Assembly (NCBI GenBank): GCA_965222615.1
Contig: CBDCUI010000007.1
Coordinates: 736,001 to 800,000, forward strand
DNA length: 64,000 nt
Source: Gammaproteobacteria bacterium
GTDB taxonomy: Bacteria > Pseudomonadota > Gammaproteobacteria > UBA4575
Reading direction: 5' to 3'
The notes beneath the pieces were generated by a model that did not search any database, was not told the origin of the DNA, and was given only the letters and a program-made list of their open reading frames with translations. Below are positions 51,654 through 54,638 of the stretch, piece by piece (position 1 is the stretch's first letter; each line of letters begins with the position of its first letter). A program made the translations under genes and the position numbers.

Positions 51654-52541
51654 TTAATATGAAGTCAGTACGAATGCCAATGCGAGTGGCAATGTAATGA
51701 TAGCGAAAAGATTGCCAAACAACACAATTGAAGCCACAGCTTTGGGTTGTTGACCGAAGCGTTCAGCAAATAAAAAATTCATCACGGCAGGAGGCAATGC
51801 TCCAAATAACAGTAATGAACCAGCTTGAATGGTTGAAAAATCAAAATATATGACCAAGACGTATGCTGAACAAAAGCCCACCAATGGGATCAACAGAGCA
51901 AACAACACTCCCATTTTCCACTCTTGAAAATCAATGCTGGCTAGGCGTACCCCTAGAGAAAACAGCATTAATGGAATAGCGATTTGCCCCAACATATCAA
52001 TCGGTAACATGATACTTTTGGGGAGAGAAGTCGATGTGGCATTGAATAGCAATGCTGCTACTGCGGCCCAAATCACCGTCTGTTTAAGCGCAATAAATGG
52101 ATTAGTGCCACGACTTAATATCATACTTCCAAGTCCATAATGGGTGACATTGCCGATTAAGAACAAAACTAATCCAGTAACTAAGCCAGGTTTTCCAAAT
52201 GCTAGCGTCATTAAGGGTAAGCCGACATTGCCTGCATTGTGAAACATCATAGGCGGTGCAATGGTTCGAAATGGGTAGGAACTGAACTTAGAAATACACC
52301 AAGCAATAACTGCTGCAATTAACACAATTGCCAAACCCGCTATTGCAAGGGAGAGATGTTCATTAAGCGCAAAAGATTGATCGCTTAGTGACGCGAATAC
52401 CAAAGCCGGCACAAACACATCTAAATTTACGCGATTCGCGGTATCCATATTTAAATGCCAGACTCGACCAAGTACCGTACCCAAGGCAACAATTGCAATA
52501 ATCGGAAACATAATCCCAAGAATTTGTATAAAAAGATCCAT
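51654..52541 (-). CDS. AEC family transporter
   Basis: VPALVF, NAGNVGLP, PLMLFSLG, PPAV; about 10 TM helices. Confidence 0.9.
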   Translation of the reverse strand: MDLFIQILGIMFPIIAIVALGTVLGRVWHLNMDTANRVNLDVFVPALVFASLSDQSFALNEHLSLAIAGLAIVLIAAVIAWCISKFSSYPFRTIAPPMMFHNAGNVGLPLMTLAFGKPGLVTGLVLFLIGNVTHYGLGSMILSRGTNPFIALKQTVIWAAVAALLFNATSTSLPKSIMLPIDMLGQIAIPLMLFSLGVRLASIDFQEWKMGVLFALLIPLVGFCSAYVLVIYFDFSTIQAGSLLLFGALPPAVMNFLFAERFGQQPKAVASIVLFGNLFAIITLPLALAFVLTSY

Positions 52542-52597
52542 TTCTCTATTTTGTTCTTTTATTAGTAATGAATATAAATTGAGCGTTCTAAAATGTA

Positions 52598-52816
52598 TTG
52601 TTCATTTTCTTTGCTTGTCCAAAGCCTTAATTAAATAGACTAGGGGAACCAAAAGAAAAGACCCCCGAATTTACTTGCCCTTCGGGTTCACTCGCTACAC
52701 AGAATGACTTTACTGTCGGCATGATTCGCATCCTGCTCAGCATGCCTCAAATGAACATCCCTGTTCATTTGTCAGCAGTCTTATCTGCTTGCTCGTCAAG
52801 CAAATAATGGGAATTT
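52598..52816 (+). repeat. Dispersed structured repeat element, copy 2 (most diverged)
   Basis: Same head (with an insertion) and the same stem order as copies 1 and 3, with different paired sequences. Confidence 0.8.
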
Positions 52817-52944
52817 AAGCAGCATCAAAAATGATTGCTTTCGTCCAATAGCAATGGTATGGCCTCCCTCAACTTTAAACGGCATCGTAATGTGCCCATA
52901 CTGGAAGCGATAGAACCAGTTACTTTGAATAAAGGAGACCATAC

Positions 52945-53979
52945 ATGAACAAGATTACACGCATGGGTGTGGATTTGGCAAAGCATGTTTTTCAACTACA
53001 CGGGGTGGATCGCACGGGAAAGTGCGTATTCAAACGACGCTTATCTCGAAGCAAGTGGCTTAAGGTATTAGTGGAGCATGTTGAACCGGGTGGTGAGATT
53101 GGCATGGAGGCCTGTTCGGGTGCACACCACTGGGCTCGTGTATTACAACAACGAGGCTATGTGGTGAAATTGATTGCACCCCAGTTTGTAAAGCCTTATG
53201 TAAAGAGCAACAAGAATGATGCCAACGATGCCGAAGCCATTTGCGAAGCCATGAGTCGCCCCAACATGCGCTTTGTCACGATCAAAAGTATTGAACAGCA
53301 AGACATTCAGGCCCTGCATCGTGTGCGTAATACTTTGGTGCAACAACGCACCGCTAAAGCCAATCAGATTCGAGGCTTAGTGAGTGAATATGGCTTAGTC
53401 GCACCCCAACAGTTACATCGATTACGCGCTGCAATACCGACTTGGTTAGAAGACGGAGAGAATGGCTTAACGCCACACTTTCGTTCTTTACTACAGGGAC
53501 TTCAACATGACGTACTAACATTAGATGCGCGTGTAAAAGAACTTGATCAAACGATTGAACAACAGGCCAAACAAAACGAAGTCACCAAGCGTCTACAACA
53601 GCTACGAGGGGTCGGGCCGATGGTGGCCACAGCATTGATTGCCACGGTAGGCGATGCCAAACAATACAAGAGCAGTCGCCAGATGGCGGCAGCCTTAGGC
53701 TTAACCCCCAGACAACACAGTTCAGGCAATAAAGAGCGTTTACTGGAAATCAGTAAACGCGGCGATGCCTATCTGCGCACCTTACTCATTCACGGAGCAA
53801 GGGCTGTCGTCTCGCAAGCGAAACATAAAGAGGATCGATTGAGTCAGTGGGTCACGCATCTTTCTAAAACCAAACATACGAATGTGGCCGCTGTCGCACT
53901 GGCGAATAAAACCGTGCGTATGGCATTTGCAATGTTGCGAGATGAAAGTGAATATGATCCGAACTTTGCGCTTATGTGA
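52945..53979 (+). CDS. IS110 family transposase/recombinase
   Basis: GVDLAK, MEAC, KNDANDA (DEDD), GVG, GLTP..HSSG. Confidence 0.97.
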   Translation: MNKITRMGVDLAKHVFQLHGVDRTGKCVFKRRLSRSKWLKVLVEHVEPGGEIGMEACSGAHHWARVLQQRGYVVKLIAPQFVKPYVKSNKNDANDAEAICEAMSRPNMRFVTIKSIEQQDIQALHRVRNTLVQQRTAKANQIRGLVSEYGLVAPQQLHRLRAAIPTWLEDGENGLTPHFRSLLQGLQHDVLTLDARVKELDQTIEQQAKQNEVTKRLQQLRGVGPMVATALIATVGDAKQYKSSRQMAAALGLTPRQHSSGNKERLLEISKRGDAYLRTLLIHGARAVVSQAKHKEDRLSQWVTHLSKTKHTNVAAVALANKTVRMAFAMLRDESEYDPNFALM

Positions 53980-54019
53980 AATAAAACAATTAACGAAATT
54001 ACATGTACTTACACTTAAG

Positions 54020-54240
54020 AGGATTATCTACCACGATTGCAAAGTAATTTATTAGATGGCAAACCGGTCGAACCGACCTAAGCGTAACCCGTGAATGTCC
54101 AGGTACTTCGAGTACGTAATAGCGATTGGGTGCTTAGGTGCGAATACACCATCCTGGCCCAGCATCAACGCTTGCTATCAATAGAGGCCGAATATACGTG
54201 TGCAGTCGACTCTACTTTGTCATTGAATATTTTGCTTGCA
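54020..54240 (+). ncRNA. Putative bridge RNA/seekRNA of the IS1111 element (boundaries approximate)
   Basis: AATGTCC (54094-54100) and AATAGCG (54118-54124) match both strands of the reconstructed target; ACCAT (54148-54152) and ATATAC (54192-54197) match the joined IS ends. Confidence 0.75.
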
Positions 54241-54275
54241 AACGGAGGGAGGCCATATACGGACATTTTATAAAT

Positions 54276-54581
54276 TCAGCAACATGGAATGCCTGAAATA
54301 ATCATACCGGATAAAATCCAAATAAATAATCCGAGGAATAATAAATAAATTGAAATATCATTTTTAAAAATAGTGGGTAGCATAATCAAAGGCAAACTAA
54401 AAATTGCGAATATCCCTGCAAATAATATATCTGACTTATCTATGCCAAACCTAAAGATTAAGAAAGGACCAAATAAAGCATCATAGTCTGATGGCGGGGA
54501 TCCATAAAGAGAGAAATAGCTTACAAGACCAAATACTAAAAACGCTATTGAAAGTAGAATAAAGTATTTAAATTTTTTCAC
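54276..54581 (-). CDS. Hypothetical AT-rich membrane protein
   Basis: 101 aa with about 3 TM helices; low GC; GTG start. Confidence 0.65.
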   Translation of the reverse strand: MKKFKYFILLSIAFLVFGLVSYFSLYGSPPSDYDALFGPFLIFRFGIDKSDILFAGIFAIFSLPLIMLPTIFKNDISIYLLFLGLFIWILSGMIISGIPCC

Positions 54582-54638
54582 TAATATATTTTTAGAATGG
54601 TTACTTTAGATTGTTAACGGACATACTAGCACCTCTTA

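What the first reader, a model, noticed from the sequence alone, without database searches (positions are those of the whole stretch)
54020..54266. IS1111 non-coding region carries readable guides for its target and its own ends
Seen: removing the IS (52852-54259) leaves ...TCCAATAG|CGGACATT.... The 3' non-coding region has AATGTCC (reverse complement of GGACATT) and AATAGCG (top strand across the junction), separated by the hairpin GTAC-TTCGA-GTAC inside a longer stem. A second loop has ACCAT and ATATAC, matching the predicted circle junction ..CCATATAC-AATGGT... Established: IS110/IS1111 recombinases use bridge/seek RNAs with target- and donor-binding loops. The transposase ORF is intact, so this looks like a complete RNA-guided recombinase with a decodable target.
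Basis: partly seen in the sequence, partly recalled or inferred. Interest (0 to 1): 0.72.

Follow-up and report, generated by a model that had tools for sequence, protein, structure and literature searches.

The report
IS1111-type jumping gene with guide RNA
This is an intact IS1111-type insertion sequence whose non-coding tail encodes the guide RNA that picks its insertion site, so it is a clear natural example of a system described in 2024 and not a new kind of element.

Summary
The element at 52852-54259 is an intact IS1111-group insertion sequence. It has a 344-aa DEDD transposase, 13-bp subterminal inverted repeats and a 280-nt 3' non-coding region.

The genome holds 4 near-identical copies and 2 copies of a 79%-identical sister. 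All 6 sit at the same point of a 28-bp palindrome..CCAATAG^CGG(A/T)(C/T)AT. An uninterrupted site 28/28 identical to one copy's joined flanks also exists.

AATGTCC (54094-54100) and AATAGCG (54118-54124) lie on the two sides of an internal loop closed by covarying stems. In 61 unique related insertions these positions match each element's own flanks better than in any of 2000 flank permutations. An unbiased covariation map puts 54118-54120 first.

A third IS lineage in the same genome has only 138/349 identical residues. It inserts 5 bp away in a variant palindrome and carries exactly the guides this code predicts.

The donor matches ACCAT and ATATAC are weak alone: 658/20000 shuffles contain both. 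They do covary with the element ends.

The layout matches published IS1111 seekRNAs (PMC11187229). Verdict: a new member of a known kind, of low to moderate interest. This scan found the same kind before on other DNA.

The parts
52831..52851 (+). Left half of the 28-bp palindromic target (ATGATTGCTTTCGTCCAATAG). The last 5 bases, AATAG, are read by the bottom-strand guide.
   Evidence: All 6 copies have ..CCAATAG directly left of the element. Target positions -5, -4 and -3 covary with 54118-54120.
52852..54259 (+). Complete IS1111-group insertion sequence, 1408 bp. The boundary is ambiguous by the single C at 52852/54260.
   Evidence: There are 4 copies at 99-100% and 2 sister copies at 79% in the genome. 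Flanks are and an uninterrupted site.
52858..52870 (+). Left subterminal inverted repeat TATGGCCTCCCTC, 6 nt from the left tip.
   Evidence: It is the reverse complement of 54245-54257. The same arrangement was found in 67 of 80 related loci.
52945..53979 (+). Transposase gene, 344 aa, DEDD/RuvC-like N-terminal domain plus Transposase_20 C-terminal domain, with the motif GLTPRQHSSG at residues 252-261.
   Evidence: Pfam PF01548 (2e-20) and PF02371 (3.2e-24). NCBIfam NF033542 'IS110 family RNA-guided transposase', 347 bits against a cut-off of 140. Motif. PDB relatives are ISCro4 and IS621.
54034..54208 (+). Predicted long guide RNA (seekRNA/bridge RNA) body. It is closed by CGAUUGC (54034-40) pairing with GCAGUCG (54202-08).
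   Evidence: RNAalifold consensus on 65 sequences gives 34 pairs, 14 with compensatory changes. 0 of 500 shuffles reach the observed values. The closing helix itself is almost invariant, so it is untested by covariation.
54077..54138 (+). Target-binding loop domain: outer stems CCUAAGC..ACCCG / UGGGU GCUUAGG, an internal loop, and the inner hairpin GUAC-UUCGA-GUAC.
   Evidence: The same fold appears in types A, B and C. In the outer stem 7 of 8 pairs show double changes. In the inner hairpin 3 of 4 pairs do.
54094..54100 (+). Target guide T (AAUGUCC), complementary to the top strand right of the cut (GGACATT, 54261-54267).
   Evidence: Own-flank matches summed over +1..+9: observed 6.13, permuted mean 5.12, permuted maximum 5.66, so 0 of 2000 permutations reach the observed value.
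54118..54124 (+). Target guide B (AAUAGCG), identical to the top strand across the cut (AATAG|CG), so complementary to the bottom strand.
   Evidence: Identity with the element's own flank is 85-98% at positions -5..+1, against 42-97% after permutation, and 0 of 2000 permutations reach the sum. These positions give the three highest values of the unbiased covariation map.
54148..54152 (+). Probable donor guide (ACCAU), complementary to left-end bases 3-7 (ATGGT, 52854-52858).
   Evidence: The left-end base 7 and the guide base go together: T with A in 6 of 7 rows, G with C in 58 of 60, and the ATGAG end with CUCAU in 2 of 2. Type C has the end ATGTATG and the guide CAUACAU.
54156..54189 (+). 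Inner stem-loop of the donor loop (GGCC...GGCC).
   Evidence: Pair 133/167 is C-G in 43 sequences and U-A in 21. Copy A4 carries a 16-bp tandem duplication inside this hairpin.
54192..54197 (+). Probable donor guide (AUAUAC), identical to the right tip plus the core C (..ATATA|C).
   Evidence: In locus L020 the right end CCATACA goes with the guide GAUACACG. Type C has AUAUACA. The position is otherwise invariant.
54236..54241 (+). TTGCAA, the predicted -35 box of a junction promoter. In the excised circle it lies 16 nt before TACAAT, which is formed from 54258-54259 plus 52852-52855.
   Evidence: Script scan of the in-silico circle junction scored 9 of 12 consensus positions. GCTTGCAA is conserved in relatives. 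No sigma-70-like site was found on the + strand inside the linear element.
54245..54257 (+). Right subterminal inverted repeat GAGGGAGGCCATA, 2 nt from the right tip.
   Evidence: It is the reverse complement of 52858-52870.
54260..54267 (+). Right half of the target (CGGACATT): the core C followed by the bases read by guide T.
   Evidence: Right flanks of the 6 copies are CGGACAT (2), CGGTCAT (3) and CGGTTAT (1).

Best explanation
The stretch is the 3' non-coding region of an intact IS1111-group insertion sequence. It encodes the element's guide RNA, called seekRNA or bridge RNA.

One internal loop carries two 7-nt target guides. AAUGUCC pairs with the top strand just right of the cut. AAUAGCG pairs with the bottom strand across the cut. 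Together they place the DEDD transposase on ..AATAG^CGGACATT inside a 28-bp palindrome.

A second loop probably reads the joined ends of the excised circle. There ACCAU pairs with the left end and AUAUAC with the right end plus the core C.

What is shown here:
- the element and its copies;
- the shared target;
- the guide-to-flank code and its covariation;
- the covarying stems.

What is inferred from characterised relatives:
- the region is transcribed, most likely together with tnp from a promoter formed at the circle junction;
- the RNA is bound by the transposase;
- the RNA is needed for excision and insertion.

I put the target-guide part at about 0.9 and the donor-guide part at about 0.65.
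For: Family:
- Pfam PF01548 plus PF02371 and NCBIfam NF033542, 347 bits against a cut-off of 140.
- 13-bp subterminal repeats, and a 280-nt non-coding region downstream against 93 nt upstream.

Same target:
- 6 of 6 copies in the genome are flanked by ..CCAATAG | CGG(A/T)(C/T)AT.
- An empty site is 28/28 identical to copy A1's joined flanks.

Conservation: types A and B differ at 21% of bases, yet both target guides and both donor segments are unchanged. The closing stem shows CCC/GGG changed to CUC/GAG.

Covariation with flanks:
- 80 related loci were fetched. Ends were found in 67. With the two own types this gave 61 unique insertions with both flanks.
- Guide B: own-flank matches sum to 6.41, against a permuted mean of 4.95 and a maximum of 5.31.
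- Guide T: 6.13, against a mean of 5.12 and a maximum of 5.66.
- In both cases 0 of 2000 permutations reach the observed value.
- In the unbiased map, the three top pairs are target -5, -4 and -3 with 54118, 54119 and 54120. Their MI values are 0.99, 0.81 and 0.55, against a null maximum of 0.48.

Structure: 34 consensus pairs, 14 with compensatory changes, 98.1% of cells paired, 0 of 500 shuffles as high, and slid controls at 27-46% paired.

A prediction that was fulfilled: a third lineage (type C, 138/349 aa identity) sits at ..CGACC^CAAAGCGGA... Its non-coding region contains UCCGCUUU, then a hairpin, then CGACCCA, which are exactly the strings the code predicts. It also has the donor strings CAUACAU and AUAUACA.

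Agreement with print: PMC11187229 sections 8-10 and 14 and PMC11208160 passages.
Against: - No RNA evidence. No run on record as RNA holds the stretch, and only assembled contigs could be laid. Neither transcription nor a circle junction was observed.
- No Rfam family matches the region, so membership rests on my own comparison.
- Single-sequence folding is not exceptional: z = -1.2 for the 280 nt, and -1.9 for the target-loop domain.
- Guide T is tolerant. Only 2 of the 6 own copies match it 7/7, and the others match 5-6/7. In relatives its per-position match is 57-90%. In the unbiased map its pairs (MI 0.37-0.39) do not exceed the null maximum.
- The donor matches are short: 658 of 20000 shuffles contain both.
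- Exceptions exist among the donor matches: L051, L011, L019, L030 and L074.
- For ISEc11 an 82-nt RNA with only the target matches was sufficient (PMC11187229 section 10).
- The target bases GGCC at -9..-6 are conserved (C in 53 and 49 of 61 at -6 and -7) but match no guide.
Confidence: 0.87

Rival explanations
1. Only the target loop is a guide. The element's ends are recognised by the transposase through the subterminal inverted repeats, and ACCAT/ATATAC are scaffold sequence that resembles the ends by chance or by shared ancestry.
For: - The short 82-nt seekRNA of ISEc11, which holds only the target matches, supported transposition. The authors say it is not known what binds the ends (PMC11187229 sections 10 and 14).
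- The two strings occur together in 658 of 20000 shuffles.
- The donor segments are nearly invariant across relatives, so there are few independent changes to test.
- There are 5 exceptions: L051, L011, L019, L030 and L074.
Against: - Where the ends do differ, the loop follows. Left-end base 7 T goes with A in 6 of 7 rows, and G with C in 58 of 60. The ATGAG end goes with CUCAU in 2 of 2. The CCATACA end goes with GAUACACG in 1 of 1.
- The distant type C has the end ATGTATG and the loop string CAUACAU, 7 of 7.
- Durrant et al. report predicted donor guides for IS1111-group elements (PMC11208160 passages).
Confidence: 0.3
2. The guide acts as single-stranded DNA of the element's right end and not as RNA, as with the DNA guide segments of IS200/IS605 elements.
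For: Sequence complementarity and covariation cannot tell an RNA guide from a DNA guide, and no transcript was observed here.
Against: [quoted passage not shown] An RNA supplied in trans was sufficient (PMC11187229 sections 8 and 10).
- The stems show G-C to G-U changes, which keep an RNA helix. For example, pair 52/108 is GC in 30 sequences, GU in 22 and AU in 11.
- The transposase is an equivalog-level match to the 'RNA-guided transposase' model.
Confidence: 0.03
3. The matches are coincidence, or a remnant copy of the target captured inside the element, and have no guiding role.
For: Single-sequence folding energy is unremarkable (z = -1.2), and there is no Rfam hit.
Against: - Both 7-mers occur together in 87 of 200000 shuffles.
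- The two segments have opposite polarity and are split by a hairpin, so they are not a contiguous copy of the target.
- They covary with flanks across 61 insertions.
- The code predicted the guides of type C.
Confidence: 0.01

Closest known systems
IS1111-family seekRNAs of ISEc11, ISPa11, ISKpn4 and ISPst6 (Siddiquee et al. 2024, PMC11187229; sections 6, 8, 9, 10, 13 and 14 read)
   Same: - A 3' non-coding region downstream of a roughly 340-aa DEDD transposase.
- Subterminal inverted repeats.
- Two short target matches, the top-strand-complementary one 5' of the bottom-strand-complementary one, overlapping in the target.
- ISPa11 also inserts in a REP.
- No internal promoter, so the RNA is expected to come from the circle-junction promoter.
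   Different: - This is a different element with a different target sequence.
- I could not compare sequences with those elements, because no ISfinder sequences were on hand, so identity to them is unknown.
- Here nothing is shown experimentally.
- Here a second loop with end-matching, covarying bases is visible. That paper left end recognition open.
Bridge RNAs of IS110-family elements, IS621 as archetype (Durrant et al. 2024, PMC11208160, passages; Hiraizumi et al. 2024, PMC11208158, passages)
   Same: - Two internal loops, each reading both strands of one DNA partner around a shared core.
- A DEDD/RuvC plus Tnp-domain recombinase with a catalytic serine motif.
- Bridge RNAs were predicted in 93.0% of IS1111-group elements, located in the right end.
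   Different: - IS621 carries the RNA in the left end, upstream of the gene.
- Siddiquee et al. report that the order of the two target matches is reversed between the IS1111 and IS110 types (abstract and Discussion of PMC11187229).
- I recall the IS621 core as CT, which is also cited for ISPpu10 in PMC12288879. Here only a single C is shared between the target and the ends.
- The protein is distant. phmmer against IS621 gave E 6.5e-10 for the whole sequence, and its best-scoring stretch lies in the C-terminal part.
- Handshake guides could not be tested here.
REP-targeting IS110-family elements of Pseudomonas (ISPpu9 and ISPpu10; Pares-Guillen et al. 2025, PMC12288879, abstract and passages)
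   Same: - Insertion at a fixed point of a repeated palindrome.
- Several copies clustered where palindromes cluster.
- For ISPpu10, a hybrid promoter at the circle junction with the -35 box from the right end and the -10 box from the left end.
   Different: Those elements are described there with a CT core and with a bridge RNA preceding tnp in the transcript, which is the IS110-type layout. The element here has the IS1111 layout. No antisense RNA promoter was seen near the start of tnp here.

Membership tests
IS1111 group of the IS110 family | DEDD (RuvC-like) N-terminal domain plus Transposase_20 C-terminal domain, 330-350 aa | tested here: met
   PF01548 at 2e-20 and PF02371 at 3.2e-24. 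NF033542 at 347 bits against a cut-off of 140. The protein is 344 aa.
IS1111 group of the IS110 family | Subterminal inverted repeats of 7-17 bp, set in from the tips | tested here: met
   The 13-bp repeat TATGGCCTCCCTC / GAGGGAGGCCATA lies 6 nt from the left tip and 2 nt from the right tip. The same layout was found in 67 of 80 related loci.
IS1111 group of the IS110 family | The longer non-coding region lies downstream of tnp | tested here: met
   280 nt downstream (53980-54259) against 93 nt upstream (52852-52944).
IS1111 group of the IS110 family | GL-P----S(T)G motif in the C-terminal domain | tested here: met
   GLTPRQHSSG at residues 252-261. The motif is as given in PMC11187229 section 6.
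IS1111 group of the IS110 family | Site- and orientation-specific insertion without a multi-base target duplication | tested here: met
   6 of 6 copies are at the same point and in the same orientation of the palindrome. An uninterrupted site equals the joined flanks 28/28.
IS1111 group of the IS110 family | Excised circular intermediate with a junction promoter | not testable with these tools
   Only the hexamers TTGCAA-16 nt-TACAAT could be read from the in-silico junction. The contigs laid showed no junction.
seekRNA / bridge RNA | Two short segments in one loop, one complementary to each strand of the target, overlapping at the cut, with the top-strand match 5' of the bottom-strand match (the IS1111 order) | tested here: met
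   54094-54100 and 54118-54124. They overlap at the G of 54261. The order is as in PMC11187229 section 9.
seekRNA / bridge RNA | Guide bases change with the target across relatives | tested here: met
   0 of 2000 permutations reach the observed own-flank matches for either guide. The top three pairs of the unbiased map are guide B positions. Type C's guides were predicted from its flanks.
seekRNA / bridge RNA | Loops held by conserved, covarying stems | tested here: met
   14 of 34 pairs have compensatory changes, 0 of 500 shuffles reach the observed values, and slid controls are far lower.
seekRNA / bridge RNA | A second loop complementary to the element's joined ends (donor-binding loop) | tested here: inconclusive
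   The matches are only 5 and 6 nt, and 658 of 20000 shuffles contain both. Covariation is in the expected direction, but there are few independent changes and 5 exceptions. Type C gives strong support with 7 plus 7 nt.
seekRNA / bridge RNA | The RNA is made, binds the transposase and is required for movement | not testable with these tools
   No RNA run is listed and only contigs could be laid.
Any curated Rfam family | A match at or above the gathering score | tested here: not met
   5 matches at E up to 10 in 52500-54600, all below gathering. None lies inside 54018-54259.
IS1111-attC group (targets integron attC sites) | The target is the attC site of gene cassettes next to an integron integrase | tested here: not met
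   Some palindromes follow small ORFs at C9:80.5-82.7 kb. The only tyrosine recombinase found in the 12-kb stretch examined scores 43 bits on the integron-integrase model TIGR02249, against a cut-off of 265.

The most novel reading that the evidence does not exclude
Three diverged IS1111-group lineages share one small family of 28-bp palindromes in this genome. Types A and B are 84% identical in protein, and type C is about 40% identical to A.

The lineages have divided the family by reprogramming their guides. A and B cut after ..AATAG. C cuts 5 bp away, after ..CGACC, in a variant of the palindrome.

All three also carry end-matching, covarying bases in a second loop. IS1111-group elements would then use a full two-loop bridge RNA and not only a target-seeking RNA.

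The conserved GGCC of the target lies outside any guide footprint. It would point to an additional determinant that is not RNA, such as the protein or the hairpin shape of the DNA.
Probability: 0.45. Interest if true: 0.45.

Novelty: new member of a known kind. Interest (0 to 1): 0.3.

Why it matters
It adds no new mechanism. Its value is as a clean, fully decodable natural example.

- The guide code can be read directly from sequence. Guide B equals the last 5 flank bases plus C plus the next base. Guide T is the reverse complement of the next 7-8 bases.
- The code predicted the guides of a 40%-identical relative in the same genome.
- The covariation of the second loop with the element ends bears on an open point: whether IS1111-group elements read their own ends by RNA. 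Siddiquee et al. left this open, and Durrant et al. predicted it.
- The conserved but unguided GGCC in the target suggests a further specificity determinant that could be tested.
- The alignment of 65 guide-RNA regions with their flanks could seed a covariance model, since Rfam has no matching family.

Tried and rejected
- Rfam: no family matches the non-coding region. The listed sub-threshold hits (snoRNA-like, E 0.1; mir-1473, E 4) look like chance.
- Sequencing runs: no RNA holder is listed. The four runs laid are assembled contigs. They showed other copies' flanks and the 16-bp duplication variant, but no joint across the element and no circle junction. Contigs cannot show rare forms.
- Alignment A1 contained one wrongly referenced row, L005 on the wrong strand. 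I discarded it and used A2.
- Masking helix. RNAalifold pairs GAUGG (54056-60) with CCAUC (54149-53), which would mask the donor guide. In the Dyella loci the helix partner, the guide and the left end all change together.
  - A first scan for variants was too loose: 119 hits, none with the RNA context.
  - A tighter scan gave 15 hits, 9 of them real. The four Dyella loci (L207, L208, L212, L213) are compensated; the other five are not. L206, L214, L215 and L216 are four further lineages, and one locus was not examined further. I therefore rate the helix as weakly supported.
- Integron attC target: rejected.
- Extra guide for the conserved GGCC: none appears in the covariation map.
- Cross-pairing (handshake). 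The 7th base of the donor guide B is G. It matches the target base after the core and not the left end. It is invariant in the clade, so there is no test. The T/C choice next to the donor guide T against the target base was 8:2 for A-targets and about 24:25 for G-targets by my own hand count, which is not convincing.
- Naming the element: a protein search of plasmids gave at best 68% identity, annotated only as IS110-family transposase. ISfinder was not available.
- Earlier notes on this genome: none fit.
- Supplementary figures of PMC11187229 and the extended-data figures of PMC11208160 show the published folds and guides. I could not see them, so the loop-by-loop comparison rests on their text.

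Full report
**Observation.**
- AATGTCC at 54094-54100
- the hairpin GTAC-TTCGA-GTAC at 54103-54115
- AATAGCG at 54118-54124
- ACCAT at 54148-54152
- ATATAC at 54192-54197

Removing 52852-54259 leaves ..TCCAATAG|CGGACATT.. One base is ambiguous, because a C both begins the element and follows it.

In composition-matched shuffles of the 280-nt non-coding region, the two target 7-mers occur together in 87 of 200000. The two donor strings occur together in 658 of 20000. The target matches are therefore well beyond chance on their own. The donor matches are not.

**The element.** 52852-54259 is a 1408-bp insertion sequence.
- Its one long ORF (52945-53979, 344 aa) has the DEDD_Tnp_IS110 and Transposase_20 domains.
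- It scores 347 bits on NCBIfam NF033542, 'IS110 family RNA-guided transposase', against a cut-off of 140.
- It carries GLTPRQHSSG, the GL-P----SG motif that PMC11187229 (section 6) gives for IS1111 transposases.
- Its solved relatives are the ISCro4 and IS621 transposases.
- 13-bp inverted repeats lie 6 nt and 2 nt inside the tips (52858-52870 and 54245-54257).
- The long non-coding region is downstream of the gene: 280 nt, against 93 nt upstream.

All of this is the IS1111-group layout.

**Copies and target in the same genome.** The genome has 3.10 Mb in 9 contigs. It holds four copies at 99-100% identity and two copies of a sister element at 79%. I call these type A and type B.
- One type A copy has a 16-bp tandem duplication in the non-coding region.
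- All six copies have intact 344-aa ORFs. A and B proteins share 288 of 344 residues.
- All six are flanked by the same sequence in the same orientation: ATG(T/A)(C/T)(C/T)GC(T/A)TTCG(G/T)CCAATAG | CGG(A/T)(C/T)AT. This is a 28-bp imperfect palindrome.
- An uninterrupted site at C9:82089-82116 equals the joined flanks of copy A1 at 28 of 28 positions. This fixes the ends and shows there is no multi-base target duplication.

The palindrome family is small. A fuzzy search found 22 strand-hits, which amount to about a dozen empty sites plus the occupied ones. Only 5 empty sites pass a strict arm pattern. The sites cluster in a few regions that are also dense in insertion sequences.

**Do the guides track the target?** I fetched 80 related loci whose transposases are 66-83% identical.
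- My script found the subterminal repeats in 67 of them.
- 13 were dropped because no exact repeat of 9 nt or more was found, mostly at contig ends: L008, L033, L034, L037, L039, L041, L042, L043, L047, L048, L058, L062 and L080.
- With the two own types, 62 insertions had both flanks, and 61 of those were unique.

The ends and the RNA scaffold are strongly conserved, but the loop bases vary. I read the loop in fixed register.
- The 3' segment equals the last five flank bases, plus the core C, plus the next base. Identity with the element's own flank is 85-98% at these seven positions. After permuting flanks among loci it is 42-97%. The sum is 6.41, against a permuted mean of 4.95 and a maximum of 5.31, so 0 of 2000 permutations reach it.
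- The 5' segment is complementary to flank bases +1 to +8. The sum is 6.13, against 5.12 and a maximum of 5.66, again 0 of 2000.

I also made an unbiased map of mutual information. It compared every column of the non-coding region with every flank position from -20 to +14.
- Its three highest values are target -5, -4 and -3 with window bases 54118, 54119 and 54120.
- Those values are 0.99, 0.81 and 0.55, against a null maximum of 0.48 in 30 permutations.
- The top-strand guide pairs appear at MI 0.37-0.39, which does not exceed that null. This guide is supported by the directed test only.

Guide T is visibly tolerant. Among the six own copies it matches 7/7 twice, 6/7 twice and 5/7 twice.

**Structure.** The minimum-energy fold of 53980-54259 puts both target guides on opposite sides of one internal loop.
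- The loop is closed by CCUAAGC..ACCCG / UGGGU GCUUAGG and capped by the GUAC hairpin.
- The isolated domain folds the same way in types A, B and C.
- Single-sequence energies are unremarkable (z -1.2 to -1.9).

On 65 aligned sequences RNAalifold gives 34 pairs, 14 of them with compensatory changes.
- Counted with controls, 98.1% of cells are paired, against 92.8% in shuffles, with 0 of 500 shuffles as high.
- With the 3' partners slid by 1-3 columns, 27-46% are paired.
- The outer stem of the target loop carries most of the signal, with 7 of 8 pairs doubly changed.
- The inner hairpin has 3 of 4 pairs doubly changed.
- The inner stem of the second loop alternates GGCC/GGCC with GGUC/GACC.
- The helix that closes the whole RNA (54034-40 with 54202-08) is almost invariant, so it is untested.

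**Donor loop.** The second loop lies at 54140-54200.
- ACCAU is complementary to left-end bases 3-7.
- AUAUAC equals the right tip plus the core C.

Across 69 rows, which include some repeated loci:
- left-end base 7 = T goes with guide A in 6 of 7 rows;
- base 7 = G goes with guide C in 58 of 60 rows;
- the two Dyella loci with the left end ATGAG have CUCAU;
- the one locus with the right end CCATACA has GAUACACG.

The exceptions are L051, L011 and L019 (one mismatch each), L030 (guide altered) and L074 (right tip altered). The changes are few and partly shared by descent, so I rate this part as probable and not established.

**An independent test inside the genome.** A scan with the transposase model found a third lineage, type C, with five full copies and one cut by a contig end.
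- It is 1370 bp and encodes 347 aa, with 138 of 349 positions identical to type A.
- Its copies sit at ..(C/T)(G/T)ACC | CAAAG(C/T)GGACA.. This is a variant of the same palindrome, cut 5 bp away from the A/B point when the two variants are aligned directly.
- From the code above I expected a 3' guide CGACCCA and a 5' guide TCCGCTTT.
- Both are present in its non-coding region, in that order. They are separated by a GGAU..AUCC hairpin and enclosed by a GCUUCGAUG/CAUCGAAGUGC stem.
- Its second loop has CAUACAU, complementary to its left-end bases 3-9, and AUAUACA, its right tip plus C plus A.

This is the strongest single piece of evidence, both for the target code and for the donor loop.

**How it most likely works.** The following is shown:
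- the element and its copies;
- the common target;
- the guide code;
- the covarying stems.

The rest is inferred from characterised relatives (PMC11187229 sections 8-10 and 14; PMC11208160 and PMC11208158 passages).

1. The element excises as a circle.
2. The joined ends create a promoter. Here that is TTGCAA in the right end, 16 nt, then TACAAT spanning the junction. No sigma-70-like site is found on the coding strand of the linear element.
3. tnp and the downstream region are transcribed together, and the guide RNA is cut out and bound by the transposase.
4. The target loop pairs with both strands of ..AATAG^CGGACATT.
5. The second loop holds the joined ends.
6. The recombinase exchanges strands at the shared C.

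**Comparison with what is known.** The layout matches the IS1111 seekRNA description point for point. It has a 3' location, a top-strand match 5' of the bottom-strand match, and overlap in the target. Durrant et al. predicted bridge RNAs in the right end of 93.0% of IS1111-group elements. Natural retargeting between relatives, ISEc11 against ISXne4, is also in print.

I could not compare the sequence with named ISfinder elements. The closest plasmid-borne relatives are 68% identical and are annotated only as IS110-family transposase.

The membership features I could test are met. RNA production, protein binding and the circle could not be tested.

This scan has reported the same kind of element on other genomes four times, each judged ordinary.

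**What remains unexplained.**
- The target bases GGCC at -9..-6 are conserved across hosts but match no guide and covary with nothing.
- A predicted helix, GAUGG/CCAUC, would mask the donor guide. It is compensated in the Dyella lineage only. The five non-Dyella loci that carry a variant at that position show no compensating change.

No transcript or junction was observed, because only contigs were available.

**Verdict.** This is a new member of a known kind.

Noticed in passing
window 52598-52820: A dispersed repeat of about 220 bp lies directly left of the target palindrome. It has at least 12 further copies in the genome at 70-89% identity. It contains hairpins that give a sub-threshold Rfam TwoAYGGAY match (31.3 bits against a gathering score of 43). 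One contig of run X1 skips 56 bases inside it.
   Followed up: partly
G000 C9:255312-256735 (copy A4); insertion point corresponds to window 54168: One type A copy has a 16-bp tandem duplication (CGCTTGCTATCAATAG) inside the inner hairpin of the second loop. The same variant is in contigs of runs X3 and X4.
   Followed up: partly
G000 C7:813562-822884, C8:555-3523 and C9:253803-260112: These regions are dense in insertion sequences. Types A, B and C alternate with empty palindromes, and an rve-type transposase lies next to groEL (L302:5447-6616). Two of the regions run to contig ends, so the assembly probably breaks on these repeats.
   Followed up: partly
G000 C7:816756-818125 and four more copies: There is a third IS1111-group lineage (type C, 1370 bp, 347 aa). 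It inserts at ..CGACC^CAAAGCGGACAT in a variant of the same palindrome, and its guides match that site.
   Followed up: yes
target positions -9 to -6 (window 52843-52846, and all related loci): GGCC (GTCC in the window copy) is conserved in targets from many hosts. It is not complementary to either guide and covaries with no column of the non-coding region.
   Followed up: partly
window 54056-54060 with 54149-54153: GAUGG can pair with CCAUC, which would mask the donor guide. Dyella relatives change this helix partner, the guide and the left end together, but the five non-Dyella loci with a variant at that position do not compensate.
   Followed up: yes
G000 C9:76000-88000 (L301): An island-like stretch holds a recombinase fragment, a DNA-packaging-like ORF and a 639-aa ORF without family. 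It also holds small ORFs, two of which (DUF7684, CBS) are each followed directly by one of the palindromes and one (RRM) is preceded by one, and a tyrosine recombinase that is not an integron integrase.
   Followed up: partly
L007 and L221 (contig CAZAOO010000015.1): The closest transposase relative (83%) and the closest PurH relative (77%) lie on the same contig of an uncultured Thiotrichales genome. The nearest known relative of the host therefore carries the nearest relative of the element.
   Followed up: no
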